Assembly: GCA_028699795.1 (NCBI GenBank) | Contig: JAQVTZ010000002.1 | Coordinates: forward strand, 1 to 43,353 | Origin: Clostridia bacterium | GTDB taxonomy: Bacteria; Bacillota; Clostridia; Christensenellales; DTU072 | Reading direction: 5' to 3' | DNA length: 43,353 bases | In this document: positions 4,046-23,575 of the stretch, piece after piece | Position numbering within the stretch: position 1 is the first letter of the stretch | How the letters are laid out: every line of letters starts with the position of its first letter | The notes under the pieces: generated by a model | Told to the model about the DNA's origin: nothing | The model's database searches: none | What the model saw: the letters and a program-made list of their open reading frames with translations, nothing else | Translations under genes and position numbers: made by a program

Positions 4046-4090
4046 ATAAAATCTTATAAGTAATAATATAGTAAAATACACGGTTTTCTC

Positions 4091-4118
4091 TTGCAAAATC
4101 TTGCACCTCTGTTATAAT
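4091..4118 (+). promoter_or_regulatory. Putative sigma-A promoter (extended -10) for the giant surface-protein gene
   Basis: -35 TTGCAA (4091..4096), 16-nt spacer, TGtTATAAT (4110..4118). It lies about 55 nt upstream of ATG 4174, which has an AGAGGTG RBS at 4161..4167. Confidence 0.55.
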
Positions 4119-4173
4119 AAACATGTATATATATAGGGCGCGTAATATATGCGTCCCGCCAGAGGTGCATGAT

Positions 4174-4245
4174 ATGTCAAAAACAACTAGAATAGCCGCG
4201 CTTGTTCTCATTCTAACGATGCTTTTATTAGGCGTTACCGCCTGC
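4174..4245 (+). other. Sec/SPII lipoprotein signal peptide of the giant protein
   Basis: A positively charged N-terminus (KTTR) is followed by the hydrophobic core IAALVLILTMLLLG and lipobox V-T-A-C, with Cys at 4243..4245. Confidence 0.7.
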
Positions 4246-7200
4246 TCTACCGATACGGCCAAGGTTACCGGCATACAACTTGCCGGTGAGTATCGCAATG
4301 TTTATTTGGTAGGGGAAGATCTCGACCTTTCGGGAATGGAACTTTTGTTGGAAAACAGCGACGGGACCACCTCGACCGTTAATATTGCGGATGTCCGCAG
4401 CGATATTAAGTTTCTCAATGTCAACACCGATGCTGTTACAAAACAGCTAGAAATTACAATACAATACCAAAAACAAAAAACAACATTTACGATAGATGTC
4501 GTCAATCCGCAATCCGACGAAAACAGGGTAAATGTGGTTTTTGATTTAAATATTGCTTCTTTAGATGAGCAATCCCGAAAATTTCAAGAAATTAAAGTAT
4601 TACAGCTAAGCAAGCTAAATGCGCCTTCGTCATCTCCTACCAGAGTAGGATACGCCTTCGATGGCTGGTATAAAGATACCGCACTCAAAAACCCCTGGAA
4701 TTTTTCTGTGGACCAAGTTATTTTAACCTCCCAGCATACCCTCAATACCGTTTATTTATATGCCAAATGGACTCCCTATTGCGAAGTAACTTTCTATAAA
4801 ATATTGCCTTCGGGCGAGACGACGCTTATTGCCACAAAAATGGTAAAAAAAGGTGGGTCACTTACAGATTTTCCCAATATCCCTATAGATGCGGGCGAAG
4901 AAAAATACATATTCGAATGGGATTACAGCAGTTTCGAAAGTATTACCGAAAATATCGAGGTATACACCAAAGAACCTGTATTAAAGACATACAATGTAGA
5001 ATTTTATGACAAAATAAACGATGCGGACCAACTTCTTTATATTCTCGAAGATGTTCCTTACGGCACAGACCTTTTGGACCCTTCCACCGTGCTTACCACC
5101 CAACATGGCGCGCAAATTTCTCCTTTACAAGAAATCGGTTTGCTTTCGCCCTCTAACAGAGAAAACCATGTTTTTGCCAATGCTTGGGATTATAAAGGGC
5201 TCACTTATCATATAGCAAATCCGCAAACAAATAACCCGTTGCGCAATGTCAAGCAAAGTATGCAATTGTATGCGCATTACGAAATAAAAACATTTACAGT
5301 TTCTTTCGATCTCAACTATCAAGGTCAGTCTATTACGCCGCCCTCCCCTCAAGTTGTTGCCCACAATACCCCCATCATCGATATTACCGTAACCAGAGAC
5401 GGTTACGATTTCGACGGTTGGTACAAAGATGCCCAATGTACCCGCCCTTGGAATTTTAATACCGAAAAAGTTACAGAAAACCGTACCCTTTATGCCAAAT
5501 GGACCAAGCTGTTCAAGATCGATTTTTACGCAATCTATTATGGCGATGTGGTGGGTGGCACAGAGAGGCAACCGGCGATGGACAACTCCAGTCTTTTGTA
5601 TTACCAAAATAACGACGGAATATGGGAAGACTCTAATGGTAACGAGATGTTTGCATCATCGACAATTGACCCTCAGATGACCGATCCCGTGGGCGGATTC
5701 CTTTATAACTACATCAAAAAAGATAACGTAATCGCCTATACTCGTGTTCTGATTGGTGAGGTAATGGTTCGCCAAGGCGAGACGGCGTCGGCGCTCCCCA
5801 GTGTATATAGCAGCCAAGTAACGCTTGATGGCCATACGGCAAAATGGAGCAGCACCTCTTTTGTCAATATCCAAGAAGATCGTTCTGTTTACGCCATATA
5901 CACAATACGAACTTACAATGTTAAGTTTGTGGACGGCGAAAACCAAATCGGTCCCACACAAGTAATCCCCTATAAAGGTAAGGCAATTGCTCCTAACGAT
6001 ACGAGAGACGAAAACCTTGCCAACAAAGTGGTGTTCGACAATTATGTTACCACTACACGCTGGGGGTATTCGTTTAGCGGATGGAATTCACTTGCCTATC
6101 TCAATGTGACCGAAGATACGACTATTTCGGCAACATTTACCCCTAACACATATAGGGTCACCGTTCAACTTAGTCCTGGCAATACCGAAGTACGCAACGA
6201 GTTGTACGATTCTGTTCTTACGCTTATTACCCCCAACAGAGAAGCGGAGGGGTATGATTTCGACGGTTGGTATACCACGCCCGATTACGCGCCCGGTTCC
6301 GAATGGGGCGCAGACGACAAAGTCACGGGCAATATCAGTATCTATGCGAAATGGGTCGAAATTTACACGATTACTTTTACGGACGGAGCGACAACCAATC
6401 CTTTGGTGCTTGCAACACGCAAGGTGCGCAAGGGAAACAGTTTAACCGATATCCCCGTAGTCCCCGAAATCGTAGGCAAAAACGGTATCTGGCGCGAAGA
6501 CGGCGCAATACCGAATTTCCAAAATGTGCAGCGCGATATGATTATTGCTGCCACATATACAGACAAAACTTTCAATGTAAACTTTAAAAACGGCAATCAT
6601 GACGATTATTTCTATCTTGCCAATGTGCTTTATAATACCAAAGTCGTACCGCCTCTTTCGCCCGAAGACCCGTCTCAAGCGGTTCCCGATCCCGATGCAA
6701 GTTATGTGGGGTATCAATTCGAGGGTTGGACGGTCGCAGGCGTCACAGGCTATGTAAATTTTTCGACTTACCAAATTAAGCAGGATACCACATTTATCGC
6801 AAGTTATTCCCGCCGTACATTTACTGTGCTGTTTGTCGATAACGATTACGACAGCACGGGCGTTGTTTTGCGTGAAGTAACGATAGAATACGAAGCGATT
6901 GCTTATCCGCCCGCAAACCCCCTAAAAACAGGGATGAATTTTTTGGGTTGGTCTACCGACAAAATTACTGTTTCAGACGATTTATCGATTACGGGTGATA
7001 CCGTTTTTTACGCTGTGTATCAAATAAAAGAATATAATGTTACCTTCAAAAGTATCGAAGACAACACTACTTGGGCGACAGTAAAAGTAGAGCATGGCGA
7101 ACTTGCTGCTTATCCGTCGGACATCCCTCAGCCTACTTATAATGGATTTACTTTTACGGGGTGGGATTATGATTTCAACACGCCAATTACTTCGCACAAA

Positions 7201-10200
7201 AATATTTTTGCGATATTCCAAATCAACACCTATACGATTACTTTCGTAACGGGAGAAGGCTCAACTGTAGACCCTGTGACGGCGACACATAACTCCTATG
7301 CGATTGCGCCCCAACAACCAACATATGAAAACATGGCTTTCTTGGGCTGGTATTTGGACGAAATGTACAGCGTACAATACTTGTTTGATCAACCGATGAC
7401 CTCGAATTTAACTTTGTATGCAAAGTGGTCCGAATATGTTAGCGGATTCGGCGATATTGTATTCCAATTAAATAGCGAAAACACGGCATATACGGTAGTG
7501 AGTGTCAATCCCGATGCGCTTGCGGTAAAGATTGATAACTTTTACCAAAACAAGCCTGTTACTTCTATCGGTAGCGGCGCTTTCCGCAACAACCAAAGGT
7601 TACGGGTAGTAATCTTGCCCGATACATTACAAACCATTGGCACAAACGCTTTCGAGGGATGTGTGAACCTGCTTCGTATCGACATTCCCCAACCCGTAAC
7701 CTCTATTGGTGACAATGCTTTTAACGGTTGCATCAATCTGTCTGCCGCAACTTTTACACCAAACTCGGCTTTAACGACAATCGGCAATTACGCATTTATA
7801 AATGCGCGCAGTCTTACGGGGTTGGCGCTCCCAGATACCGTTACAAATATCGGTTCGGGCGCGTTTATGGGTTGTTCTTCTTTATATAGTTTAGAAGTGC
7901 CGCGCGGTGTTACCACAATTGGCGCTTCCGCTTTCGAGAACTGTATCGGCCTTAAATATCTTATTTTCCTAAGACCTTCCCCTTGTATTCTTGGCGAATA
8001 CGCATTCGACGGTGTGACGCAGAGTTTCCGCCTTTATGTGCAGGATGTACTCGCTTATACTTCGGGCGTAACCAGCAATTGGCAAGCGGTAGGCGACAGG
8101 ATTTGTCCTTCGGGAAACATCGCATCCGATTGGTATTACAGTCTAATACAAGTCGGGGCGCACGCGAACAAACTTAGATTATTACATTATCTTGGCAACG
8201 ATACCGATTTAGCGGTACCCGAAACGCTCACTGTCGAAGGTGTCGAACGCACTGTTTATTCTTTAGGAGACTATTTATTTGACGGCAAAGTAACGGCATT
8301 CAAGATGAATTCTGATATGCCGCTTTCTGCAAACACTTTCGGTTCCGCTTCGGGGCTTATGAAACTCGAAGTAAGTATTGTAAACGAGTTGGGCGAACAA
8401 AGAGAATTGCTCAATTCCAACATCACCTATATCCGCAATGCGTTTGAAACCATCAATAGTCTAAAAGAACTTAGTATTTCTGCGGTGGCAACGCTCAAGA
8501 ACTTATTTGGCAATGTCAATCCTCCAGCCAATCTCAAAAAAGTCAATATCCTTAACGACCGAACAGAATTGCCCGCCGATATGTTTTATAATTGCCTTAA
8601 TATTGAGGAAATAACCATTCCCGCTTCTATACAGAATATAGGTAATTATGCTTTCTACGGATGTTATAATCTTCATAGCGTTTCGATAGCGCCTATCAGC
8701 GGTCTTACAAGTATCGGCGAGAGCGCCTTCGAAAACTGTGTCAGCTTACAACAGATTGCGATACCCGATTCCGTTACCGTTATCGAAAGCAATGCGTTCA
8801 AGGCCACGCCTTATGTAACCAATTCCGACGAAACTTTCGTCGTATTGGGAGACGGAATACTGTATTCTTACAACGGCAACGACGAAACGGTTATTCTGCC
8901 CAAAGAAATCAAACAGATCAATGAGTACGCTTTTTATGGCGCTTCTTTGCGCAGCTTTATGTTCGAAGAAGGATCCGTCTTACAAAGCGTAGGAGATTAC
9001 GCTTTTGCCGAATGTGTAAATTTAGAGCATGCGGTTTTCCCAGAAACCATGGCTTCGTTGGGCGAAGGAGCATTCTATAACGATACAAAACTTTCCAAGG
9101 TTATATTCTTCTTATATGATCAATTCGGCGTCAGGATTTACATTGCCGACACGACCAGCATATTTACAAACTGCATGCATACTTTAGAGATTATTGTACC
9201 GTTAGCAAGCAGCTCAAGATTTTTAGAGTCAGATAATAACTGGGAAGAAATTATCCGCGAACAGCTCGATTATCCCGGATGGTCCGGGCTTTCCAGCGCC
9301 AACCTGTATTTCAATGAAGAATGGATTTATAGTTTAGAAGCGGGTCAAGGGATTACCCTGTTGCAATATTACGGTTCCAACAAAGATCTAGTGATACCTT
9401 CCCAAATTGGTAGCGATGAAGTGATAGAACTTGCCAACTATACCATACCGCGTAATACCATAACTTTAGATTTTAGCGTCAGTGTCGCAAGCGATTCCCG
9501 CGTGTTTGGCGCACTCAACGGGCTTACCGAAGTTACGATAAGAGACACGACGAACGCCACCTTTATTATGGAAAAAGATTATATCTACAATATGTTGGCT
9601 GCCAACCGTTCGCTTCACAAAATCAATGTGGGCGGCAAAATGAGTATTTATTCCATTTTAGGAGACCGACTACCGCCCTCCAATATTACGGCGGTTACGG
9701 TATTTGACGGTGAGACCTCGCTTGCGGACGAGATGTTCAAAGATTGTCAATATATTGTCGATATCGAATTGCCCGACTCGTTAACCGATGTGGGTAAGCA
9801 AGCCTTTAATGGAAGCGGTTGGGAAAACGCCTATGATGGCGAATTTGTTACGATTCTGCGGGACTTAGATGGCAGAGGTTTATTGGTAAGCTATAAGGGC
9901 AACCAAAAACATGTCGTGATACCTTCCGATGTAAAAGCAATTAACCGTATGTTGTTTGAAAACAATGCATTTGTTGAAATTGTGAGCGCAAACAATCTTG
10001 AAGCGATTTATGACAATGCCTTTGCGGGCGCGGAGACGCTAAGCAAAATTATTTTAGGCGGAGATGCCCCATCATTCGGAACCGAAGTGTTCAAAGACCT
10101 TATGGAAGGGGCGCAGCTTTTTGCAGATGAGGACAAACTTGCGGGATACCTTTCCGCCGATCTTACAGGCATAGAGCTTGTTGCCAACCATATCACCGTA

Positions 10201-13200
10201 TCGGGAGATTACATGCTACAGACACTGGATGCGACGCATGCGGTGCTGCTGCAATATACAGGCGGCGGAAGCGATGCAGAAATACCCGTTTTTGTGGGCG
10301 ATTACGAAATCGTATCTATAGGCAATAACGCTTTGTATTCCGATATCCAAAACTTGACCTTCCGAGTCTCCGATATTCTCACTCAGTATTCTTTTGGTAA
10401 CCTAAAACTTCTACAATCGGTTACCATACTCGATACAAACAATATTCTTTGTGATAAAGAATATATTTACACACTGTTAACAGAAAACATCAATCTTACC
10501 AAAATATCTTATAATGGCGGAGACTGCACGCTCATCGATTTGTTAAACGGAAACAGTCCTGTTGCTTCCATTAACACGGTAGAAGTGATAGATGGCGCTA
10601 CCTCAATCATAGACGGGATGCTCCAAGAGTACGCCAATATCACCAACATTATATTGCCGTCCACTATACAAACCATAGGGTTGTATGCCTTTGAGAATAC
10701 CGCATGGTATGCGGCGCAGCCCGACTTTGTTATCATATTGGATGGATACCTTTACAAATACAAAGGGACCGAATCCAATGTTACGGTACCCAATACGGTA
10801 AAAGTAATAGGCGAAAGAGCGTTTGCCGATTATCGCGAAGGCGTTTGGGTCGGCAATATGTATGTCAGATCCCTCAAATTCGAAGGCGGAAGTTCGGCGA
10901 CCACAATTTTGTCCGAAGCGTTTTTGTCTTGCGCATTGCTCACAAAAATAGATCTTCCGTGGTCTCTTACCCAAATAGCAGAAAACGCGTTCGACGGCAC
11001 AGGAATGGCGGTAGAGAACGATACTTTGCTTGCCAGAGGCGACAGAGGCGATGCGCTTATCAGATATTATGGTACAAGTTCGCAATACGAGTTGTCCGCC
11101 GGTGTTATTACCATCAATGCTTCGGCGTTCGAAAGCAACGAATACTTGACTGATTTCGTAATCCCCCAAGATAGTCTGCTTGTAATGATCGGTCCGTCGG
11201 CATTTAAGAATTGTATCAATCTGTCTTCCGTCACAATCAATAACGGCGGAGTCTTAAGCGATGTAACAGATATATTGGCGTTAGAATATATCGAAGATAT
11301 CGGCGCCGATGCTTTTGCAGGTACGCCTTGGATGCAATCTCTTGGCAATTATCTTTTTGGCAACGGCAGACTGTTGCTTGCCAAAAACGGTGATGACACA
11401 CTGGTGCTTTCGGACAGCGATAAACCGGCGGGTTACGAACTTAACATGATTGCGAGCAGTGCATTCGCATCGTCTCATGCAACCAAATTGTATATCGATA
11501 TGATATCTCCTCTCTCTCTGGGATTGGGCTCGTTAGACTCGCTTTCCGCAATTTATGTACCTTACGATTTATACGGGATATTTGTTGCTTATTGGAACGG
11601 TTACGCAAGCAAACTGATTCCCGTGCATGTTGCCGAAGGTTCTTTTGTGAATGCCGCTGGTCAGTTGGTTTATGTAAACAAAACCGATACCGCAATTGTC
11701 TTAACAGACCATTGCGGACTGACGGAAATTGCTCCCGACGCCTTTGTGGGAACGGCGGCAACGACTTTGGTCTTAACATCTGTTATACCGCCTGTCATGG
11801 GAGGCGATTGGCTTCACGGCATCAATACCATTTATGTAGCGCCCGAAGCCGTGGACGCATATAAAGCGGCTTGGAGTTCCTACGCTTCTTCTATCCAAAG
11901 CTATACATTGTTGCAAGAAAAATTCCTTGTTTATGACAATATTCTGTATCAGTATGACGGCAATGAAGAAGTGGTAACTGTTCCCATTGGTATCCAAGAG
12001 ATTGCGGGACACGCTTTTGCGAATGCAAACAATATCAAATTCCTTTTTGTTCCGTCGGATGTGACAACGGTACAGTCTTATGCTTATTTCGGATTGCAAA
12101 ATGCGGCGGTAGCGGCAGAACTTTCCAATATCGAAGGCTGGTCTGAAGATTTCGCGGCAAACCTTCTTGGTTTACATACTTCCGTGAGCGCGGGCGTGGC
12201 GGGGATAGAGGGCGACTATATTACCAAACCAGTATCCGGAGGGGCCGAAATCATTCGTTATTTAGGCAATCAAAACAGTGTGACGATACCCGATTCTATC
12301 GCAGGACAAGCGGTTTACGGCATTGCTTCCAAGGCTTTTGCAGGCAATCCGAATATTATCCGAATTACTCTTCCAAGCAGCGTGGAGATTGTCGCCGAAA
12401 ATGCATTCTACGGGTGTGAATCGTTAACCGTTATATTCAAAAGCGCCGCTATCCCTTCGGGGTGCCAAGCGGGCTGGAACAACTGGGTAGAAGAAAGTTA
12501 TGTAAATGGTAATTCAGAATTTTCCGATGCATACGGTAACCAATATATCAACAATGCCGGAAACGCGGTACTCATAAAAGCCGTGTCAGGGCACGAATCA
12601 ATGTCGATTTCTTTGGCGGGAGGACTTACCGTCAAAACCATCGCTGCCAATGCGTTTGCCGAAGTGACGGGATTACGCTCATTAAGGCTTTCCGACACCA
12701 TTATCAATGTCGGTATTTCGGCGTTCATAGGTTGTGAACAAACGGTGCTTTATTTAGATGCCTCACAGGTGCCAGCCACTTGGGCGACAGGCTGGACGGA
12801 CTTTGTATTGGATTATTATACGGATTACAAAAAAGTCTTTACCGTCAACGATGGCGGAGCGGAAGGCACCGGCTTCAAAATGCTTCTTAACGAAGGCGCT
12901 CTTATTATTATAGATTATCAAGGCGATCCTGTTGATCTTGTCATTCCTAACACGGCGATGTACTATTCAATAAATTATTATGTTACCGAAATCTCTTGCT
13001 ACGCTTTTTATAATAAGACAATGCTAGAGTCCGTAACACTAAATGCCGAAATGAAAAAAATAAGCGCGTACGCCTTTGCAGGCTGTACCGCCTTAACAAG
13101 TATCGATTGGAACTCCAAACTGGAGGCAATCGGAACAGGCGCATTTAGTAATAATGCTTGGTTAGACGGGCAAAATTATATTATTGACCAAACTACCCTT

Positions 13201-16200
13201 TATTTGTATGCCGACGCTGCCAATACGGCGGTTATCCCTTCCGAAATAACGAATGTGATTGACGGCGCGTTTTCTATGGGGATTGCGCGGTATGCCGTAT
13301 TTACGATGTCCGTTCCGCCCGAAGTAGCCGATAATGCTTTTATCGGCGTACAAACCGTACTGGTTCCGCAAGGATATCTAGAGGTGTATCGCGCGGCATG
13401 GCCCGCTTACGCAGATTTTATTCAAGCCTACACAGAGGTGAACGGCGCGATGTATTACCGCAATACATTGGTCTATTACAATGGAGACGGAGAAGAATTA
13501 ACTGTTCCTTCCTCTATTGAAGGCTACATTGTTAACGAAATTTCTGACAAAGCTTTCTTAGGAAGCGCGAGCCTCAAAAAATTGGTATTGCCTTCTAGTA
13601 TAAGCACTATGGGCGAAAGCGTGTTTTTGGGTTGTTCTAATCTTGTCATTTATTTGGAAGGCGATAACTCGTTTGCTCCCGACTGGTCTGCAGGCGCAAT
13701 GTATGTATATGCCGATACCTCTAGCCAAACAATTGTTGTAAACGGAGTGCGTTATTTTGAGGAGCTAAACGCCTTTACCGTTATCGGGGTAGAAGAAGGC
13801 TACAAAGAAGTGTTTGTCGAAAGCACCGTAAACGGGCTCGATGTTATCAAAATCGGGCATAGAGCGTTTGCGGGCGGCGGGTTATATAAAGTTACGCTTC
13901 CTGTCTCTATCCAAACTATTGACGCGACTGCATTCCAAGGAGCGGACAATACGGTACTAATTATCTTGGCAGACACCTTGCCCGACGAAACAAACGGTTG
14001 GAGCGCGGACATCAACGAAATCTATGTTGGTGAAAGCAACTTTGTCACCGCGGGCGATTATACGGTCTTCGCAAACGGTGATACGGCGGTATTGTTCGGA
14101 TATAACGGTTCATTAAACGGGATAGCTTTACCCGATACGGTAGCCGATAAAACGCTGACAGGTATCGCAAGCTATGCTTTCCTTGATGCTAGCCTATTTA
14201 AAATAGTACTAAACGAATCTATGGATAAGGATAGCATAAGCGCAAAAGCTTTTGCGGGAATGACAGCAGAATGTGTTGTTTATGTGCGTCAGAATATCAA
14301 TATCAATGATTATGCTTGGGCAGAGGATGTCTATGAAGCTCATGCCGATTATCAAGAGTATGATAGCGGGGATTACAAGGTGATTCCCATGCAATTAGAG
14401 GAAGAAAGCGGGTTAATGATTGTGGGGAGCACAATTTCTATAACGGATTATCTCGAAATACCTTCTTCATTAGCGGTTACAGGGCTTGGTACATTACCCG
14501 TTATAGGTATTGCAAGCTACGCATTCAGCTTACTTCTTTCTAATCCTTACGCCGTCATCATACCCGAGAGTGTAAGCTATATCGGGGGCAAAGCGTTTTC
14601 GAAGATAGAAGAATACGGCACAGCTTCCAATGTTTTTGTAGAAAGTGAAAATGCCAAAACGGGCTTCGCAGAGGGCTGGGACAACGGATTTTCCGATACT
14701 TTTTATAATTGCAATGCGGCTGCAACGGTAAACGGTGTTGTCTATCTTGCAGACGGAGATGAAGCCGTTGTAGTAGGTTATACGGGAGACTCTTCTGTTG
14801 CGGTAATAGAGGGGAAAGTTATTATAGACGGTAACAGTTTCGAAGTTACCAAGATTGCCGCTTATGCGTTCGCTTTTATGCCGCATTTAACAAGAATCTT
14901 TATCCCCGACAGCGTGATAAGCGTTCGCGACCGTATCGCATACGAAAGCGGTGCAGATGTCGTGATGTCGCTCGAGCACTCCATGGTTGCTTCGTATTGG
15001 CCTGTGGGTTGGAACAACTTTGGGGCGCAGCAAGTGAAGATAAGCTCTCAATTGGTCGCAAGTAACGATCTGTTGTTATTGTTCCACAATAATACCTTAA
15101 GTGTTATAAGATATAGCGGTACTGATGCCACAATCACGATACCAGAGTCCGTTTCAGTCGGCGCCAATGTTTACGAAGTAACGGCAATCGAGCCTTATGC
15201 GTTCTATCATTCCGATGCATACCGTATTTATGTACCCGAAAGCGTAGACAGCATAGGAGAATTTGCTTTTGCAGATTGCGACCATGCTATCTTGTTTATC
15301 GGGGACACCAGCTCCGATCCTTCTTGGGATTATACATACGGAGGTTCGACGATTGCATACGATAGCGATGTTAAATATACATATTACAATTATACAGCGT
15401 TCGAGCAGAGAGGGGGGTTCCGTTATGTGCTGGACGGAATATCAGCGCATATTGTAGATTATGTCGGCACCGATACCGAACTTGAGATAGAAGATACGAT
15501 TATCATCGATATGGTAACCTACGAGGTCAATGCCATTGGTCCGTACGCGTTTGCGTTCCTTACTGATATCACAAAAATCATTCTTCCCGACACTATAAAT
15601 ATGGTGTACCAAGATGCGTTTTTAGGGACTTCCAATGCCGCGCTTTATCTTACCCATGTTATGGTGCCCGTTTATTGGCCCCAAGGATGGGAGGGAGACA
15701 CATTGCATGTCACTCTTAATGCGGCGAATACTTGCGAAGAACAACTCTTCCAATATATCTGTTATACCCCCGAAGTAGGACAAAGAACGGCAACGATTAC
15801 GGGTTTTTCCGGAGGCTCCGTCTCAGAGCTTACCATTCCCGCATCCTTTATTCACCCAATTGACGGTTTAAATTATAAGGTAACCCGAATTGCAGAGTAT
15901 GCATTTGCCAATAGGACAGAATTAAGTTCGGTTAATTTGCCGCAGAATGAAGATAGCAACCTAACCGAAATTGGCGCATACGCTTTCTATCGGTGTATCC
16001 GCTTATCGACAATTTCCAATTTTGACAGCAAAATTGTGAATATCGGAGAAAACGCCTTCCAGTCTACTCTATGGTACCAAAACATTTCGGATAAATATTT
16101 AAAAAGTAACGATAGACTAAGGCTCTACACAGGAAACGAAAGCGCGGTAATCTTTGATGCGCAAACCCAAATCGATATTTTGGGCGGAGCGTTCGCCTCG

Positions 16201-18363
16201 AGCGAGGAATTAAAGTATGTGGTATTTTTAGACGGAATCAAACCCGAAGTACATTCGGACGCATTTGTTTCGGTAGAAAAAATACTTGTTCCCGAAGCGA
16301 ATCTCCAGATGTATCAAAATCTGTGGCCCGAGAACAGCCACAAAATAGATAGCTTTCATGAAGAAAACGGCATGCTGTTCTACCAAAATAAACTTATCGC
16401 CATTATCAATAAAGTTGACACGGATTTAACGATACCTCAGCAAGTTGAAGATTATACCATAGACACTATCCTTTCACATGTCGACAAAACGGGTCGCGAT
16501 ACTTTATTAAGTCTTACGATACCCCGAACAGTCACAACGATAGGCCCCAACACTTTCCCGTACACCGCGGTATATTTTGAGGTTGCAAACAGATTGGAAG
16601 GATACAGCACCGCCTTTACCGCATTAGAAGAGTATTTTGATATAGGCGAATTCTTCCATTTAGAAGGCGCAACATTTGCGGTTATCGATGGCAAAGCAAA
16701 GCTGATAAATTATTACGGAGATGCAAAAGAATATACAATACCTCTTAGTGTTTTTTATAACGGAACCGATTACGAAGTATCCGCAATCGGCTCGTATGCT
16801 TTTGCCCAAAACAACTATGTAAAGAGCGTCTATTTGCCCAAAGGTATCGACAGCATTGGTGTGTACGCTTTCAGAACGGCGTTCTCAGGGCCTCAAGAGC
16901 CCGAGTTTATCTTGTACACTGGTCTTTCGGAGGATTCTTATCCTTGGTACAATAATTGGGAAATGCCGGTATACTTTAATATCCCCAAAGTACAAAGTCA
17001 AGGCTCCATGAGATATGTTGTAACAGATGACGGGATTACGATAACACAATATTTCGGAACAGTAAGCGTGTTTGACATCCCGCAATCTCTTACCATAAAC
17101 CAAGTCGCGATTAGTGTGACGGCAATAGGCGCGTACGCATTCTACAATGTATCCTCATTGGCCAATATCACCATTCCCTCAAGTGTAAGAATGATAGGCA
17201 AACATGCCTTTACAGGAACAAAATGGTTGCAAGACGCAGGAGATTTCATAGTTGACAATAGTAGGCTGTTGCTTTATAATGGTGAAGACAAAAATGTTAC
17301 AATCGAAGAGTCATCGGGCATAAGAAGTATTGTAGGCGGCGCATTCTTAAGCAGCAGGGCATTCAGGTTGGTCATCAACGGAGACACACCGATGATAGAG
17401 TTGTACGACCACGCTTTCGACGGAATCGAAATCATCGATGTGCCCAGTGTCGCATCAGACATTTACCGAGAATATATCTGGACAAATTATCAGTCCATGA
17501 TTATCGGAAGTGTACGCATCGGCGAATACGGGTTCTCACTTAACCCAGACGGGACAGCAAAAATTATAGGATATTACGGCGAGTCCGCTACGCCCGAATT
17601 GCCTTCTTCCGTCACTGTTGGCGAAAGATCGTATACCGTCAATGAGTTGGGTGACAAGTTGTTCAAAGGCAGAACCGAACTTATCCAAATAATATTGCCC
17701 CGAAGCATACAGTATCTCGGAGAAAATGTCTTTACAGATTGTAACAATACCGTAGTCTATTTGCGGCACGAAGTTATCCCCGCCTGGCCGACGGGTTGGT
17801 ACAATGACTTGTTGCATGTTTATTCCAATATCGACAACTTTGTGGCAATAGGCGATTACACCGTCCAACTCAACGCAGGCAATCACGAACTAACAATAGT
17901 ACAATATAATGGGGTTGCATCCTCGGTTGCCATTTCGTCTATGATTTACGGAGCATCCGAATATACGGTAACACGCATAGGGTATTACGCCTTTTATCAC
18001 AAGACCTTTGTCAGCGAAGTTACTATGGCGGTCACGGTAGAGCAAATCGACAAGTATGCTTTCGAAGGTACTGCTTGGGCAAGCAACGGCACAGACAAAA
18101 AAGTCTTCGGCAATAAACTGATGCTGTATACCGGGAGCGCCACTTCGCTAACAATAAGCGAAACAGATGCCATTACGGCCATATGCGGCGGCGCATTTGC
18201 CTCTTCCGATGTGACCGTATTAGATATTACGGCAGAGGCCACGATTACTTTAGACGAGGGCGCGCTACAAGGCATCCAAACGATTTATGTAAACGCGGCC
18301 ACAGTAGACGAATTCAAAGATTTATGGCCGCAATACGCCGAGATAATTACGGCAAGACCTTAG
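4174..18363 (+). CDS. Giant (4,729 aa) surface lipoprotein: Ig-like domain, about 12 Flg_new (Listeria-Bacteroides) repeats and a very long BspA-type LRR region
   Basis: The uninterrupted ORF 4123..18363 is taken from the ORF track. The preferred start is ATG 4174, which has an RBS and gives MSKTTRIAALVLILTMLLLGVTAC (lipobox VTAC). Recurrent G[YF]xFxGW...LYAKW motifs and xIGxxAFxxCxxLxxIxIPxSV motifs run throughout. No LPXTG, SLH or cell-wall-binding repeats were seen. Confidence 0.9.
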   Translation: MSKTTRIAALVLILTMLLLGVTACSTDTAKVTGIQLAGEYRNVYLVGEDLDLSGMELLLENSDGTTSTVNIADVRSDIKFLNVNTDAVTKQLEITIQYQKQKTTFTIDVVNPQSDENRVNVVFDLNIASLDEQSRKFQEIKVLQLSKLNAPSSSPTRVGYAFDGWYKDTALKNPWNFSVDQVILTSQHTLNTVYLYAKWTPYCEVTFYKILPSGETTLIATKMVKKGGSLTDFPNIPIDAGEEKYIFEWDYSSFESITENIEVYTKEPVLKTYNVEFYDKINDADQLLYILEDVPYGTDLLDPSTVLTTQHGAQISPLQEIGLLSPSNRENHVFANAWDYKGLTYHIANPQTNNPLRNVKQSMQLYAHYEIKTFTVSFDLNYQGQSITPPSPQVVAHNTPIIDITVTRDGYDFDGWYKDAQCTRPWNFNTEKVTENRTLYAKWTKLFKIDFYAIYYGDVVGGTERQPAMDNSSLLYYQNNDGIWEDSNGNEMFASSTIDPQMTDPVGGFLYNYIKKDNVIAYTRVLIGEVMVRQGETASALPSVYSSQVTLDGHTAKWSSTSFVNIQEDRSVYAIYTIRTYNVKFVDGENQIGPTQVIPYKGKAIAPNDTRDENLANKVVFDNYVTTTRWGYSFSGWNSLAYLNVTEDTTISATFTPNTYRVTVQLSPGNTEVRNELYDSVLTLITPNREAEGYDFDGWYTTPDYAPGSEWGADDKVTGNISIYAKWVEIYTITFTDGATTNPLVLATRKVRKGNSLTDIPVVPEIVGKNGIWREDGAIPNFQNVQRDMIIAATYTDKTFNVNFKNGNHDDYFYLANVLYNTKVVPPLSPEDPSQAVPDPDASYVGYQFEGWTVAGVTGYVNFSTYQIKQDTTFIASYSRRTFTVLFVDNDYDSTGVVLREVTIEYEAIAYPPANPLKTGMNFLGWSTDKITVSDDLSITGDTVFYAVYQIKEYNVTFKSIEDNTTWATVKVEHGELAAYPSDIPQPTYNGFTFTGWDYDFNTPITSHKNIFAIFQINTYTITFVTGEGSTVDPVTATHNSYAIAPQQPTYENMAFLGWYLDEMYSVQYLFDQPMTSNLTLYAKWSEYVSGFGDIVFQLNSENTAYTVVSVNPDALAVKIDNFYQNKPVTSIGSGAFRNNQRLRVVILPDTLQTIGTNAFEGCVNLLRIDIPQPVTSIGDNAFNGCINLSAATFTPNSALTTIGNYAFINARSLTGLALPDTVTNIGSGAFMGCSSLYSLEVPRGVTTIGASAFENCIGLKYLIFLRPSPCILGEYAFDGVTQSFRLYVQDVLAYTSGVTSNWQAVGDRICPSGNIASDWYYSLIQVGAHANKLRLLHYLGNDTDLAVPETLTVEGVERTVYSLGDYLFDGKVTAFKMNSDMPLSANTFGSASGLMKLEVSIVNELGEQRELLNSNITYIRNAFETINSLKELSISAVATLKNLFGNVNPPANLKKVNILNDRTELPADMFYNCLNIEEITIPASIQNIGNYAFYGCYNLHSVSIAPISGLTSIGESAFENCVSLQQIAIPDSVTVIESNAFKATPYVTNSDETFVVLGDGILYSYNGNDETVILPKEIKQINEYAFYGASLRSFMFEEGSVLQSVGDYAFAECVNLEHAVFPETMASLGEGAFYNDTKLSKVIFFLYDQFGVRIYIADTTSIFTNCMHTLEIIVPLASSSRFLESDNNWEEIIREQLDYPGWSGLSSANLYFNEEWIYSLEAGQGITLLQYYGSNKDLVIPSQIGSDEVIELANYTIPRNTITLDFSVSVASDSRVFGALNGLTEVTIRDTTNATFIMEKDYIYNMLAANRSLHKINVGGKMSIYSILGDRLPPSNITAVTVFDGETSLADEMFKDCQYIVDIELPDSLTDVGKQAFNGSGWENAYDGEFVTILRDLDGRGLLVSYKGNQKHVVIPSDVKAINRMLFENNAFVEIVSANNLEAIYDNAFAGAETLSKIILGGDAPSFGTEVFKDLMEGAQLFADEDKLAGYLSADLTGIELVANHITVSGDYMLQTLDATHAVLLQYTGGGSDAEIPVFVGDYEIVSIGNNALYSDIQNLTFRVSDILTQYSFGNLKLLQSVTILDTNNILCDKEYIYTLLTENINLTKISYNGGDCTLIDLLNGNSPVASINTVEVIDGATSIIDGMLQEYANITNIILPSTIQTIGLYAFENTAWYAAQPDFVIILDGYLYKYKGTESNVTVPNTVKVIGERAFADYREGVWVGNMYVRSLKFEGGSSATTILSEAFLSCALLTKIDLPWSLTQIAENAFDGTGMAVENDTLLARGDRGDALIRYYGTSSQYELSAGVITINASAFESNEYLTDFVIPQDSLLVMIGPSAFKNCINLSSVTINNGGVLSDVTDILALEYIEDIGADAFAGTPWMQSLGNYLFGNGRLLLAKNGDDTLVLSDSDKPAGYELNMIASSAFASSHATKLYIDMISPLSLGLGSLDSLSAIYVPYDLYGIFVAYWNGYASKLIPVHVAEGSFVNAAGQLVYVNKTDTAIVLTDHCGLTEIAPDAFVGTAATTLVLTSVIPPVMGGDWLHGINTIYVAPEAVDAYKAAWSSYASSIQSYTLLQEKFLVYDNILYQYDGNEEVVTVPIGIQEIAGHAFANANNIKFLFVPSDVTTVQSYAYFGLQNAAVAAELSNIEGWSEDFAANLLGLHTSVSAGVAGIEGDYITKPVSGGAEIIRYLGNQNSVTIPDSIAGQAVYGIASKAFAGNPNIIRITLPSSVEIVAENAFYGCESLTVIFKSAAIPSGCQAGWNNWVEESYVNGNSEFSDAYGNQYINNAGNAVLIKAVSGHESMSISLAGGLTVKTIAANAFAEVTGLRSLRLSDTIINVGISAFIGCEQTVLYLDASQVPATWATGWTDFVLDYYTDYKKVFTVNDGGAEGTGFKMLLNEGALIIIDYQGDPVDLVIPNTAMYYSINYYVTEISCYAFYNKTMLESVTLNAEMKKISAYAFAGCTALTSIDWNSKLEAIGTGAFSNNAWLDGQNYIIDQTTLYLYADAANTAVIPSEITNVIDGAFSMGIARYAVFTMSVPPEVADNAFIGVQTVLVPQGYLEVYRAAWPAYADFIQAYTEVNGAMYYRNTLVYYNGDGEELTVPSSIEGYIVNEISDKAFLGSASLKKLVLPSSISTMGESVFLGCSNLVIYLEGDNSFAPDWSAGAMYVYADTSSQTIVVNGVRYFEELNAFTVIGVEEGYKEVFVESTVNGLDVIKIGHRAFAGGGLYKVTLPVSIQTIDATAFQGADNTVLIILADTLPDETNGWSADINEIYVGESNFVTAGDYTVFANGDTAVLFGYNGSLNGIALPDTVADKTLTGIASYAFLDASLFKIVLNESMDKDSISAKAFAGMTAECVVYVRQNININDYAWAEDVYEAHADYQEYDSGDYKVIPMQLEEESGLMIVGSTISITDYLEIPSSLAVTGLGTLPVIGIASYAFSLLLSNPYAVIIPESVSYIGGKAFSKIEEYGTASNVFVESENAKTGFAEGWDNGFSDTFYNCNAAATVNGVVYLADGDEAVVVGYTGDSSVAVIEGKVIIDGNSFEVTKIAAYAFAFMPHLTRIFIPDSVISVRDRIAYESGADVVMSLEHSMVASYWPVGWNNFGAQQVKISSQLVASNDLLLLFHNNTLSVIRYSGTDATITIPESVSVGANVYEVTAIEPYAFYHSDAYRIYVPESVDSIGEFAFADCDHAILFIGDTSSDPSWDYTYGGSTIAYDSDVKYTYYNYTAFEQRGGFRYVLDGISAHIVDYVGTDTELEIEDTIIIDMVTYEVNAIGPYAFAFLTDITKIILPDTINMVYQDAFLGTSNAALYLTHVMVPVYWPQGWEGDTLHVTLNAANTCEEQLFQYICYTPEVGQRTATITGFSGGSVSELTIPASFIHPIDGLNYKVTRIAEYAFANRTELSSVNLPQNEDSNLTEIGAYAFYRCIRLSTISNFDSKIVNIGENAFQSTLWYQNISDKYLKSNDRLRLYTGNESAVIFDAQTQIDILGGAFASSEELKYVVFLDGIKPEVHSDAFVSVEKILVPEANLQMYQNLWPENSHKIDSFHEENGMLFYQNKLIAIINKVDTDLTIPQQVEDYTIDTILSHVDKTGRDTLLSLTIPRTVTTIGPNTFPYTAVYFEVANRLEGYSTAFTALEEYFDIGEFFHLEGATFAVIDGKAKLINYYGDAKEYTIPLSVFYNGTDYEVSAIGSYAFAQNNYVKSVYLPKGIDSIGVYAFRTAFSGPQEPEFILYTGLSEDSYPWYNNWEMPVYFNIPKVQSQGSMRYVVTDDGITITQYFGTVSVFDIPQSLTINQVAISVTAIGAYAFYNVSSLANITIPSSVRMIGKHAFTGTKWLQDAGDFIVDNSRLLLYNGEDKNVTIEESSGIRSIVGGAFLSSRAFRLVINGDTPMIELYDHAFDGIEIIDVPSVASDIYREYIWTNYQSMIIGSVRIGEYGFSLNPDGTAKIIGYYGESATPELPSSVTVGERSYTVNELGDKLFKGRTELIQIILPRSIQYLGENVFTDCNNTVVYLRHEVIPAWPTGWYNDLLHVYSNIDNFVAIGDYTVQLNAGNHELTIVQYNGVASSVAISSMIYGASEYTVTRIGYYAFYHKTFVSEVTMAVTVEQIDKYAFEGTAWASNGTDKKVFGNKLMLYTGSATSLTISETDAITAICGGAFASSDVTVLDITAEATITLDEGALQGIQTIYVNAATVDEFKDLWPQYAEIITARP
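4258..4503 (+). other. Ig-like (Big_3-like) domain
   Basis: AKVTGIQLAGEYRNVYLVGEDLDLSGMELLLENSDGTTSTVNIADV...LEITIQYQKQKTTFTIDV matches the usual bacterial Ig-like pattern: Y.VGe.LDLsG..l.v.ysDGt...v, ending ...i.y.g....f.I.V. Confidence 0.5.
4525..7428 (+). repeat. Array of about 12 Flg_new / InlB-B-type (Listeria-Bacteroides) repeats
   Basis: Canonical G-[YFM]-x-F-x-G-W cores begin at nt 4648, 5401, 6064, 6250, 6709, 6931, 7144 and 7333. Each is followed 25-35 aa later by [LIV]YA.[WYF]. Degenerate copies (..F.W / ..KW) sit at 4903, 5170, 5830 and 6478. Confidence 0.8.
7435..18360 (+). repeat. BspA-type leucine-rich-repeat (LRR_5-like) region organised in higher-order cassettes
   Basis: There are dozens of roughly 23-25-aa units such as VTSIGSGAFRNNQRLRVVILPDTLQTIGTNAFEGCVNLLRIDIPQPVTSIGDNAFNGCINL. 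Cassette-ending motifs recur (details in findings). Confidence 0.85.
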
Positions 18364-23405: not shown

Positions 23406-23427
23406 TCTTTTTCATGGTTATAGAAAG

Positions 23428-23460
23428 AAAAGCGGCTGTTTTTGCAGCCGTTTTTCTTTT
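23428..23460 (+). terminator. Rho-independent terminator after the acyltransferase gene
   Basis: Stem CGGCTG (23433..23438) pairs with CAGCCG (23445..23450) and is extendable with flanking A/U pairs. TTTTTCTTTT follows. Confidence 0.6.
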
Positions 23461-23494
23461 TGCGGAAAACCAATTGTGGTTTGTGGTAAGAATT

Positions 23495-23525
23495 CTTGCG
23501 AATAATATACTTGATTATTCGCAAG
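23495..23525. promoter_or_regulatory. Perfect 12-bp inverted repeat (operator-like, or a second terminator) upstream of luxS
   Basis: CTTGCGAATAAT (23495..23506), then 7 nt, then ATTATTCGCAAG (23514..23525), followed by TTTT. It overlaps a candidate luxS promoter: -35 TTGATT at 23511..23516, 17-nt spacer, -10 TACAAT at 23534..23539. Confidence 0.55.
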
Positions 23526-23575
23526 TTTTGTATTACAATTATATCTTAGTAAAGAATATTAAACGGGGAAGTAAA

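What the first reader, a model, noticed from the sequence alone, without database searches (positions are those of the whole stretch)
7435..18363. The giant ORF looks like an in-frame concatenation of whole BspA-type units, because its own C-terminal tail motif recurs internally
The last 26 residues, IYVNAATVDEFKDLWPQYAEIITARP (18283..18360), follow a pattern: [IL][YV]V-P/A, a few residues, then [YF]xxxWxxYxxxIxx.

The same pattern closes LRR blocks at six internal sites:
- 8032..8103: YVQDVLAYTSGVTSNWQAVGDRI
- 11554..11625: YVPYDLYGIFVAYWNGYASKLIPV
- 11833..11904: YVAPEAVDAYKAAWSSYASSIQSY
- 13360..13431: LVPQGYLEVYRAAWPAYADFIQAY
- 16285..16356: LVPEANLQMYQNLWPENSHKIDSF
- 17434..17505: IDVPSVASDIYREYIWTNYQSMII

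Degenerate versions occur near 9196 and 10117. After each tail a new unit restarts with an intro strand of the type ..Y.G....L.IP..V.

This suggests the gene grew by fusing or duplicating complete protein-sized cassettes of 90-975 aa. The copies are clearly diverged at nucleotide level, so the duplications are old rather than an assembly artefact.
Basis: partly seen in the sequence, partly recalled or inferred. Interest (0 to 1): 0.7.

Follow-up and report, generated by a model that had tools for sequence, protein, structure and literature searches.

The report
Giant surface protein of capped LRR modules

Summary
All seven tail motifs are in frame at the stated coordinates and occur far more often than chance allows. 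They align with each other better than shuffled tails or random windows from the same LRR region.

The tail is the last about 26 residues of a conserved module of about 90 aa, called T here. AlphaFold models show it as two helices plus a strand that close an LRR mini-solenoid, both at the C-terminus and internally. The same module ends solved stand-alone BspA-type chains (4fd0, 4fdw, 2lz0) and lies internally in 3sb4.

The basic repeat is not the tail-bounded cassette. It is a module of about 100 aa (hairpin plus 2-3 LRRs) in three classes:
- G ends in a P..W..GW cap.
- W ends in AF.GT.W.
- T ends in the tail.

The order is [LRR block+tail][W T][W T][W W W T][T][G3 W T][G7 W T][G2 W T][G W T]. 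W-T and G-W-T blocks were duplicated as units.

The duplications are old. There are no nucleotide repeats, and a 49%-identical orthologue is collinear module by module. Only the C-terminal modules differ between orthologues.

Intragenic duplication fits better than fusion of separate genes. Of 150 unrelated giant LRR_5 proteins, 44 carry the tail and 22 carry it repeatedly. This is a new member of a known kind.

The parts
4123..18363 (+). Giant ORF of 4746 aa as listed. The likely true start is ATG 4174 (M18), giving a 4729-aa precursor.
   Evidence: ORF list and translation. AGAGGTG lies at 4161-4167, 6 nt before ATG 4174. A TTGCAA(4091-4096)-16 nt-TATAAT(4113-4118) promoter-like pair lies only 4 nt upstream of ATG 4123 (read). 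Orthologues align from about M18 onward.
4174..4245 (+). Lipoprotein-type signal peptide with lipobox G-V-T-A-C (Cys41)
   Evidence: MSKTTRIAALVLILTMLLLGVTAC read. V38 T39 A40 C41 are invariant against P0039. L001 and L002 have analogous ...AAAC and ...LASC. No signal-peptide predictor was run.
4300..4500 (+). Big_3 Ig-like domain (aa 60-126)
   Evidence: Pfam PF07523, E 1.1e-4
4540..7434 (+). Array of Listeria-Bacteroides (Flg_new) repeats, aa about 140-1104; presumed stalk
   Evidence: Pfam PF09479, 192 bits, 6 stretches. TIGR02543. Internal self-similarity between aa 150 and 1100.
7435..8103 (+). First LRR block (about 8 regular 23-aa BspA repeats, aa 1105-1327) closed by tail 1 (8032-8103)
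   Evidence: The tail is detected by the iterated T profile at 45.8 bits and is conserved in P0039 and L002.
8137..10707 (+). Three long W-type modules (aa 1339, 1732, 2028) and two long, degenerate T-position modules (aa 1566-1731, 1907-2027).
   Evidence: Segmentation. W1339, W1732 and W2028 are each other's best matches, and T1566's best T-class partner is T1907. The degenerate tails are not detected by profiles.
10708..11328 (+). W modules aa 2196-2298 and 2299-2402 (hairpin + LRRs, ending AF.GT.W/M)
11329..11625 (+). T module aa 2403-2501 with tail 2 (11554-11625)
   Evidence: T-profile hit at 104 bits, full length. Alignment.
11626..11904 (+). Solitary T module aa 2502-2594 with tail 3 (11833-11904). 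This is the smallest cassette: one module directly after another tail.
   Evidence: T-profile hit at 117 bits
11902..12861 (+). Three G modules (aa 2594-2913) ending in P..W..GW-type caps
   Evidence: Alignment A4; class assignment
12862..13431 (+). W-T pair aa 2914-3103 with tail 4 (13360-13431)
   Evidence: In the AlphaFold model of aa 2914-3204, the internal tail forms helices at model residues 170-179 and 181-186 plus a strand at 187-193, with pLDDT 90-94 across the junction.
13426..15750 (+). Array of seven G modules (aa 3102-3876)
15751..16356 (+). W-T pair aa 3877-4078 with tail 5 (16285-16356). It is the paralogue of the 2914-3103 pair.
   Evidence: W2914/W3877 and T3012/T3985 are mutual best matches. 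The self-alignment 2837-3168 vs 3802-4145 has E 9e-42.
16351..17505 (+). Cassette G-G-W-T aa 4077-4461 with tail 6 (17434-17505)
17518..18360 (+). Terminal cassette G-W-T aa 4466-4746 with the C-terminal tail (18283-18360). Orthologues P0039 and L001 lack the W-T part and end in a G cap.
   Evidence: AlphaFold model with pLDDT 89.6 and pTM 0.83; the tail forms helices at model residues 260-269 and 271-276 plus a strand at 277-279. Orthologue comparison.
18421..20949 (+). Downstream 842-aa acidic lipoprotein-like ORF with no family match, conserved next to the giant gene in both syntenic genomes. It is a possible partner and is not part of the repeat finding.
   Evidence: The syntenic ORFs are 829 aa in L001 and 900 aa in L002.

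Best explanation
The gene encodes a giant cell-surface lipoprotein of a gut-type Clostridia bacterium.

Architecture, shown by the sequence and searches: an N-terminal lipobox signal, one Big_3 domain and about 1000 aa of Listeria-Bacteroides (Flg_new) repeats. Then come about 3640 aa of BspA-type (Pfam LRR_5, TpLRR-class) leucine-rich repeats.

The LRR region is not one long solenoid. It is a chain of about 30 short modules of about 100 aa each. Each module opens with a beta-hairpin ('..Y.G....L.IP..V') and holds 2-3 LRRs. It ends in one of three ways:
- G: a P..W..GW cap.
- W: an AF.GT.W connector that leads straight into a T module.

The tail is the C-terminal cap of the T module. It forms two short helices and a final strand, which presumably shield the hydrophobic core at the open end of the mini-solenoid. 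The fold is shown by two models; the shielding role is inferred from the general need of LRR domains for caps. Wherever the tail occurs, one capped unit ends and the next hairpin begins 11-24 residues later.

The gene grew by intragenic tandem duplication of single modules (G arrays, T2403/T2501) and of multi-module blocks (W-T, G-W-T). These duplications predate the split from a 49%-identical orthologue. Only the C-terminal end is still turning over: the window ends G-W-T, P0039 ends in a degenerate G plus a G, and L001 ends in a single G.

Function is inferred from the family and was not tested: a lipid-anchored stalk that displays many LRR binding surfaces for multivalent adhesion to host, mucus, food-particle or other microbial ligands.
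For: - Architecture: Pfam gives LRR_5 at 669 bits in 18 stretches, Flg_new at 192 bits, and Big_3. The lipobox is read directly.
- Module segmentation and period: 30 hairpin anchors with spacings of 76-117 aa after aa 2200. Self-similarity offsets peak at about 110 and 220 aa, and also at 280-300 and 380-400 aa, which match the last tail spacings of 284 and 383 aa.
- Three classes: the six core T modules have only T modules as their three best partners (five have this for their top five). Mean within-class scores are 66-71 and between-class scores 39-54.
- Tail as cap: the terminal model has pLDDT 89.6 and shows helix-helix-strand at the tail. The internal-tail model has pLDDT 83.3, shows the same elements, and has a confident junction.
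- Fold family: Foldseek finds BspA-type structures 4gt6 (E 2.8e-8), 4fd0, 4oju, 4cp6, 4fdw, 6mlx, 4h09 and 4fs7.
- Tail ends stand-alone chains: 4fd0 at 328-404 of 404, 4fdw at 325-400 of 401, 2lz0 at 34-97 of 100. It is internal in 3sb4 at 104-171 of 329.
- Block duplication: G-W-T triples are collinear at 28-31% identity, and W/T partners are congruent.
- Age: no DNA repeats. Orthologue P0039 is collinear over aa 13-4516 at 49.5% identity, and every module through T4368 has a positional counterpart at 34-64% identity. Paralogous T modules are 23-32% identical.
- Synteny and real stop codons in two independent MAGs.
- C-terminal turnover.
- Generality: 376,624 library proteins match the W+T profile at E<=1e-3, and the top 150 are all 2,047-7,983 aa long. 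Of these, 44 carry at least one tail, 22 at least two, 11 at least five, and one carries 22 at a spacing of about 160 aa.
Against: - Module boundaries and classes were set by hand and with profiles built from this protein. HHrepID or RADAR could not be run.
- The first 1100 aa of the LRR region (aa 1105-2200) fit the G/W/T scheme only loosely. They have long, irregular modules and two undetected 'degenerate' tails.
- The G partners of duplicated W-T pairs are not clearly congruent: G4466's best matches are G3762 and G3102, not G4179. So the G-W-T block duplication is less secure than the W-T duplication.
The claim that the tail packs on the solenoid end rests on secondary structure, pLDDT and homology to the C-termini of 4fd0 and 4fdw.
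- The AlphaFold alignments had only 3-4 paralogous rows.
- Surface location, lipidation and adhesion are inferred. The closest named adhesin family (HupY/LrrG) scores far below its cut-off, 197 vs 1250 bits.
- The iterated tail profile drifted to include some GW caps and an unrelated C-terminal motif. The family counts were therefore filtered with a regular expression and are approximate.
Confidence: 0.8

Rival explanations
1. Gene fusion. The giant ORF arose by read-through fusion of several neighbouring, originally independent BspA-type genes, and each tail is the relic of a former protein C-terminus.
For: - The tail module is the true C-terminus of stand-alone solved chains (4fd0, 4fdw, 2lz0).
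- The hairpin after each tail resembles the N-terminus of the stand-alone protein 4gt6.
- The last 300 aa of the distant orthologue L002 align best with window aa 2186-2499 (103 bits). This is compatible with T2403 having once been a terminus.
Against: - No signal-peptide or linker relics occur at any of the six junctions. The next hairpin starts 11-24 aa after the tail, and the modelled junction is ordered.
- The nearest relatives of each module are modules of the same protein. A search of 5.8 billion proteins with the last cassette found only two weak hits, 23-27% identical at E about 1e-4.
- One 'cassette' is a single 93-aa T module placed directly after another T module, which is typical of tandem duplication.
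- The three syntenic genomes have one gene, not several.
Confidence: 0.08
2. The tail is not a structural cap but a repeated functional signal, such as a sorting or secretion signal or a ligand-binding or processing site. In that case the giant protein would be cut into, or act as, separate tail-terminated units.
For: - The motif is conserved (invariant W, V-P, aromatic positions) across very distant proteins.
- In several Bacteroidota-like giants the last tail lies 53-55 aa before the end, that is, near a C-terminal sorting region.
Against: - In those proteins a further C-terminal segment follows the tail. From the C-terminal sequences this looks like a separate sorting domain, which is my reading and not a tested annotation. 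On that reading the tail itself is not the sorting signal.
- The models place the tail as ordered helices continuous with the LRR fold, with a rigid junction.
- No protease-site-like or disordered linker follows the tails.
- Capping is a general requirement of LRR domains (established knowledge; capping papers surfaced, PMC2637281 and PMC3986869, cited from title and abstract).
Confidence: 0.05
3. Chance or compositional recurrence, or an assembly or chimeric artefact.
For: LRR regions are repetitive and of biased composition, so short motifs can recur. Metagenome assemblies can collapse or chain repeats.
Against: - The motif occurs 5-7 times against 0.006-0.09 in shuffles.
- The tails beat random windows from the same LRR region in all 500 trials.
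- There are no long nucleotide repeats.
- Independent MAGs carry collinear orthologues with the same tails.
Confidence: 0.01

Closest known systems
BspA-type / TpLRR-class leucine-rich repeat surface proteins (Pfam LRR_5, PF13306). Examples: Tannerella BspA, Treponema TpLRR (6mlx), pneumococcal PcpA (4cp6), structural-genomics structures 4gt6, 4fs7, 4fd0, 4fdw, 4h09, 3sb4, and the Trichomonas TvBspA family.
   Same: - Same 23-residue repeat (..L..I.IP.SV..IG..AF..C..) with a strong LRR_5 match.
- Same fold by Foldseek.
- Same N-terminal hairpin as 4gt6.
- Same C-terminal tail module as 4fd0 and 4fdw.
- Predicted extracellular location, and occurrence in microbes of mucosal or gut habitats (PMC2843621; habitats of the loci).
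   Different: - Ten or more times longer than the solved proteins.
- Contains about 30 separately capped modules rather than one solenoid.
- The T modules are so diverged that Pfam gives no hit when each is scanned alone (E<=1).
- No function has been tested.
Other giant (2,000-8,000 aa) multi-LRR_5 proteins of gut Clostridia, Mollicutes and Bacteroidota found in metagenomes (e.g. P0025, P0043, P0068, P0152)
   Same: - Dozens of profile matches per protein.
- 44 of 150 carry the same tail, 22 of them repeatedly. P0025 has 22 tail-capped units about 160 aa apart.
- Many also combine Flg_new repeats with LRR_5; the loci were recovered through Flg_new peptide patterns.
   Different: - The window protein mixes three module classes in an ordered G(n)-W-T grammar, whereas P0025-type proteins repeat one unit.
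- Its only close relatives are P0039 (49.5% identity), L001 (49%) and L002 (29%).
Leucine-rich repeat adhesin HupY/LrrG (NCBIfam NF047961)
   Same: Partial similarity over LRR_5 repeats (E 4.5e-58, 197 bits). It is a surface adhesin built on the same repeat type.
   Different: The score is far below the equivalog cut-off of 1250 bits. The length and architecture differ. The window protein is not a member.
Listeria internalins (LRR plus inter-repeat and B-repeats)
   Same: The general plan is similar: an LRR binding region combined with Flg_new/B-repeat stalk elements on a Gram-positive surface (Flg_new hit). N- and C-terminal caps flank the LRRs (PMC3986869, surfaced).
   Different: The LRR class differs (internalin 22-residue LRR vs TpLRR). 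The domain order is reversed, with the stalk N-terminal here. The anchor is a lipobox rather than LPXTG or GW modules. There are many LRR domains instead of one.

Membership tests
BspA-type LRR proteins (Pfam LRR_5 / TpLRR class) | Significant match to PF13306 above the gathering score | tested here: met
   669.1 bits against a cut-off of 27.7, in 18 stretches
BspA-type LRR proteins (Pfam LRR_5 / TpLRR class) | Tandem repeats of about 23 residues with the consensus L..I.IP..V..IG..AF..C | tested here: met
   Read directly in aa 1143-1300 and in every module. Alignments to 4fs7 and 4gt6 repeats.
BspA-type LRR proteins (Pfam LRR_5 / TpLRR class) | Fold similar to solved BspA-type LRR structures | tested here: met
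   Foldseek hits: 4gt6 at E 2.8e-8, 4fd0 at 3.3e-6, 4oju at 3.1e-5 (TM 0.58 on the target), then 4cp6, 4fdw, 6mlx, 4h09 and 4fs7. Whole-model TM scores are low (0.2-0.3) because the query contains several modules.
BspA-type LRR proteins (Pfam LRR_5 / TpLRR class) | C-terminal closing module of the '..VP....Y...W..F..I' type, as in 4fd0 and 4fdw | tested here: met
   The window T profile hits 4fd0 at 328-404 of 404 (E 8.8e-8) and 4fdw at 325-400 of 401. The broadened profile gives 4fd0 E 3.4e-37 and 4fdw E 1.1e-36 for the whole chain, matched in 2 stretches each.
BspA-type LRR proteins (Pfam LRR_5 / TpLRR class) | Extracellular or surface location and adhesive function | not testable with these tools
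   Only a lipobox-type signal peptide is seen.
Listeria-Bacteroides repeat (Flg_new / TIGR02543) proteins | Repeats matching PF09479 / TIGR02543 above cut-off | tested here: met
   PF09479 at 192 bits (cut-off 27), 6 stretches. TIGR02543 at 81 bits (cut-off 20.95).
Bacterial lipoproteins | Signal peptide ending in a lipobox [LIVMFWSTAG](2)-[LIVMFYSTAGCQ]-[AGS]-C | tested here: met
   ...LLLGVTAC (Cys41) fits the pattern by inspection. The Cys is conserved in P0039, L001 and L002. No dedicated predictor was run and lipidation is untested.
Adhesin HupY/LrrG (NCBIfam NF047961 equivalog) | Score at or above the curated cut-off of 1250 bits | tested here: not met
   197.1 bits

The most novel reading that the evidence does not exclude
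The T module of about 90 aa (hairpin, about two degenerate LRRs, helical tail) and the GW-capped G module may be self-sufficient mini-LRR domains that current libraries do not model. Their ordered G(n)-W-T grammar could define discrete binding cassettes. In that case the module turnover seen only at the distal C-terminus of syntenic orthologues (G-W-T vs G-G vs G) would reflect adaptive swapping of the outermost binding units, a slow analogue of adhesin or antigenic variation in gut Clostridia. A related reading is that the ancestral protein ended at the tail at aa 2501. The whole distal half (aa 2502-4746) would then be a lineage-specific extension, as hinted by the C-terminus of L002 aligning best with aa 2186-2499.
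Probability: 0.2. Interest if true: 0.45.

Novelty: new member of a known kind. Interest (0 to 1): 0.25.

Why it matters
The result explains how a 14-kb gene of an uncultured gut bacterium is built and how to read it. It is a lipid-anchored stalk carrying about 30 separately capped LRR modules, not one enormous solenoid.

The practical gain is a parsing rule for this abundant class. 376,624 library proteins match the W+T profile, and many of the best matches are thousands of residues long. Hairpins mark module starts, and tails or GW caps mark module ends. This allows construct design for structural or binding studies and module-level comparison between strains.

The tail-bearing module also escapes Pfam annotation when scanned alone.

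The result does not reveal a new kind of system. Repeated tail-capped units are common among giant BspA-type proteins.

Tried and rejected
- A whole-protein self-BLAST returned only the identity hit. It was replaced by chunked self-BLAST.
- The search for homologous proteins with the last cassette gave only 2 weak hits, so close stand-alone relatives could not be sampled that way. Of the two, P0002 (372 aa) has the tail at 291-318 followed by a 54-aa extension, and P0001 has no tail.
- An exact look-up of the giant protein found no record.
- The first genome scan, with peptides from the window alone, found no relative. A second scan with the window + P0039 alignment found the syntenic loci.
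- The profile search of 1.84 billion representatives lists only the top 150. All are giants because scores add up over repeats, so it could not sample short stand-alone proteins. PDB chains were used instead.
- The narrow T profile built from the window alone found tails in only 13 of 150 giants. Iterating it raised sensitivity, but it drifted to include some GW caps and an unrelated '..YLKSTY..Y.W' C-terminal motif. Counts were therefore filtered with a regular expression.
- The G-cap portion of the G profile matched no PDB chain beyond the LRRs, so no solved structure of the GW cap was identified.
- The degenerate tails near 9196 and 10117 could not be confirmed by any profile.
- Chance and assembly-artefact explanations were rejected.
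- A literature search found no paper that describes this cap or multi-cap grammar in the held library. Absence there is not proof of novelty.
Full report
**1. What is at the locus**

The finding lies in one ORF, window 4123..18363 (+), 4746 aa. Pfam finds LRR_5, described as 'BspA type leucine rich repeat region', at 669 bits in 18 stretches. It also finds the Listeria-Bacteroides repeat Flg_new at 192 bits in 6 stretches, and a Big_3 Ig-like domain at aa 60-126.

The N-terminus reads MSKTTRIAALVLILTMLLLGVTAC from M18, a lipoprotein-type signal with a lipobox cysteine at residue 41. This cysteine is conserved in the orthologues. ATG 4174 (M18) follows AGAGGTG by 6 nt. ATG 4123 lies 4 nt after a TATAAT that is paired with TTGCAA 16 nt upstream. 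The real start is therefore probably 4174.

Neighbouring genes are ordinary chromosomal genes:
- GH5 cellulase, BioY and alpha-amylase upstream;
- an 842-aa ORF without any family match, then a Na/Pi cotransporter, LuxS, an M29 peptidase and MurJ-like genes downstream.

**2.

All seven tails are in frame at the stated coordinates.

A pattern that includes the I/L-Y/V-V part occurs 5 times against 0.006. A looser pattern recovers all 7 against 0.04. None occurs in the N-terminal 1104 aa.

The seven 26-aa tails align with each other at a mean score of 29.5. Shuffled tails give 16.9 +/- 0.85. Random windows from the same LRR region give 18.2 +/- 2.4, and none of 500 samples reaches the observed value.

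Six tails close modules that align collinearly, with only short gaps, over about 90 aa. The consensus is W....G.Y...N.RL.LY.G.D...VI.....IT.I.GGAFASS.AT.LVIT...PPEL...AL.GI.TIYVP....D.Y.A.WP.YAS.I.

At the DNA level the gene has no tandem repeats. Its longest direct repeats are 24-36 nt at 62-88% identity. The copies are therefore old, and assembly cannot have produced them.

**3. The real repeat unit**

Printing the LRR region shows a hairpin signature (..L..Y.G....V.IP..V) 30 times. After aa 2200 the spacings are 76-117 aa. Each hairpin opens a module with 2-3 LRRs. The modules end in three ways:

| Class | Ending | Number |
|---|---|---|
| G | P..W..GW-type cap | 13 (alignment A4) |
| W | AF.GT.W, running directly into a T module | 9 |
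| T | the tail | 8 (six canonical, two degenerate) |

Pairwise scores support the classes. The six canonical T modules have only T modules as their three best partners. Within-class means are 66-71, against 39-54 between classes.

The order is [LRR block + tail][W T][W T][W W W T][T][G G G W T][G x7 W T][G G W T][G W T].

But the tail-bounded 'cassettes' of 95-1171 aa are composites of modules of about 100 aa, and the 'intro strand' begins every module, not only those after tails.

Self-similarity offsets peak at about 110 and 220 aa (module scale). They also peak at 280-300 and 380-400 aa, which equal the last two tail-to-tail spacings of 284 and 383 aa.

**4. What the tail is**

An AlphaFold model of the last cassette (aa 4466-4746, four paralogous rows) has mean pLDDT 89.6 and pTM 0.83. 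The tail forms two helices (model residues 260-269 and 271-276) and a final strand (277-279).

A second model spans an internal tail (aa 2914-3204) and has pLDDT 83.3. It shows the same helix-helix-strand at model residues 170-193, followed at once by the next module's hairpin. pLDDT is 90-94 across the junction.

A profile of the window's T modules matches 4fd0 at residues 328-404 of 404 and 4fdw at 325-400 of 401, that is, the very ends of those chains. The 4fd0 tail reads [30 protein letters not shown]. A broadened profile confirms both and adds two more. The 100-residue chain 2lz0 is matched at 34-97 (E 1.7e-6). 3sb4 carries an internal tail at 104-171 of 329.

The N-terminal hairpin matches residues 12-88 of the stand-alone protein 4gt6.

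The tail is therefore the C-terminal cap of a BspA-type LRR unit. That LRR solenoids need caps to cover their hydrophobic ends is established knowledge; capping papers surfaced.

**5. How the gene grew**

G-W-T triples from four cassettes align collinearly over 332 columns at 28-31% identity. The strongest internal alignment, aa 2837-3168 against 3802-4145 (E 9e-42), runs through W, T and into the next G.

W and T partners are congruent. T3012/T3985 and W2914/W3877 are mutual best matches, and so are T4368/T4652. The early long modules W1339, W1732 and W2028 group together. This supports duplication of W-T blocks as units.

The G modules are less congruent (G4466 is closest to G3762 and G3102), which suggests separate expansions of G arrays. 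One 'cassette' is a lone 93-aa T module placed directly after another T (aa 2502-2594), the signature of a single-module tandem duplication.

Fusion of independent genes is less likely, for these reasons:
- Junctions are seamless, with 11-24 aa from tail to next hairpin.
- The junctions carry no signal-peptide relics and are ordered in the model.
- A search of 5.8 billion proteins with the last cassette found only two hits, 23-27% identical. These are less similar than the internal paralogues.

**6. Orthologues**

A profile search of 1.84 billion representatives returned P0039 (4604 aa). It aligns collinearly with window aa 13-4516 at 49.5% identity. Every module through T4368 has a positional counterpart at 34-64% identity, against 23-32% between paralogous T modules. 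The whole grammar, internal tails included, therefore predates that split.

A genome scan found two syntenic loci:
- L001, MAG 'Clostridiales bacterium Firm_09' (LVAO01000003): giant ORF of 4551 aa, alpha-amylase upstream, an 829-aa ORF and a Na/Pi transporter downstream.
- L002, Clostridia MAG RGIG4281 from roe deer colon: giant ORF of 3596 aa, 29% identity, followed by a 900-aa ORF.

Profile annotation gives identical grammars for the window, P0039 and L001 up to T4368. After that the ends differ: G-W-T (window), a degenerate G plus G (P0039), and one G (L001). All end in real stop codons.

L002 is collinear only to about aa 2400. It then has a run of W modules and ends in a tail. Its last 300 aa align best with window aa 2186-2499. 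Module number therefore varies between orthologues, mainly at the distal end.

**7. How unusual is it**

The W+T profile matches 376,624 library proteins at E<=1e-3, and the best 150 are all 2,047-7,983 aa long.

An iterated T profile was filtered with a motif expression because it drifted slightly. With it, 44 of the 150 carry at least one tail, 22 at least two and 11 at least five. P0025 carries 22 tail-capped units about 160 aa apart, with tails such as LYVPEGTSADYKSKDSWYRFSEVVEA. Six of the 150 end within 10 aa of a tail, and seven end in a GW-type cap.

Strings of tail-capped BspA units are therefore a common design in giant LRR_5 proteins. The family itself is well known from mucosal and gut microbes, with large variation in repeat number (PMC2843621).

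Two modest points are new. The T modules scanned alone get no Pfam hit even at E<=1. And no paper in the held library describes this cap or grammar.

**8. Function**

Nothing here tests function. By analogy with BspA-type adhesins and internalin-like layouts, the most likely role is multivalent adhesion. The lipid-anchored N-terminus and about 1000 aa of Flg_new repeats would act as a stalk, and about 30 capped LRR modules would offer many concave binding faces.

NCBIfam shows only sub-threshold similarity to the adhesin HupY/LrrG, 197 against 1250 bits.

**9. Verdict**

This is a new member of a known kind, of modest interest.

Noticed in passing
window 4091-4176: The annotated ATG at 4123 is probably not the start. 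AGAGGTG (4161-4167) precedes ATG 4174 (M18) by 6 nt, and a TTGCAA-16 nt-TATAAT pair ends only 4 nt before 4123. Orthologues also align only from about M18.
   Followed up: partly
window 18421-20949 (+): An 842-aa, very acidic ORF with its own lipoprotein-type signal (...SSLMLGC) has no Pfam or NCBIfam match. It sits immediately downstream of the giant gene here and in both syntenic genomes (829 aa in L001, 900 aa in L002). Its last about 40 aa look like a Flg_new repeat (...FEGWYVDEDL...). It may be a conserved partner.
   Followed up: partly
It is also the C-terminus of orthologues P0039 and L001 and of 6 other giant proteins among the 150. No solved structure of this cap was found.
   Followed up: partly
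L002 15546 region (last 300 aa of its giant ORF) vs window aa 2186-2499 (nt 10678-11619): The C-terminal W-W-T of the 3596-aa distant orthologue aligns best (103 bits) with the window's W2196-W2299-T2403, not with the window's own C-terminus. This hints that the ancestral protein ended at the tail at aa 2501 and that aa 2502-4746 is a later extension. However, the T module alone scores best against T4652, so the signal is mixed.
   Followed up: partly
window 18076-18360, 13156-13434, 17224-17508: T modules scanned on their own give no Pfam family at E<=1. Standard domain annotation would therefore leave the tail-bearing modules blank.
   Followed up: yes
P0025 (4027 aa): An unrelated giant protein carries 22 tail-capped units at a very regular spacing of about 160 aa. 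It shows the 'concatenated units' design far more cleanly than the window protein.
   Followed up: partly
window 23402-24115 (+): The LuxS ORF is listed as 237 aa, but the LuxS domain covers only residues 62-202. The listed start is probably too far upstream, or there is an N-terminal extension.
   Followed up: no
window 22107-23405 (+): A 432-aa ORF has only weak, sub-threshold matches to Condensation and WS/DGAT C-terminal domains. It may be an acyltransferase of unclear type. An ORF of similar size (426 aa) lies at the corresponding position in L001, but homology was not tested.
   Followed up: no
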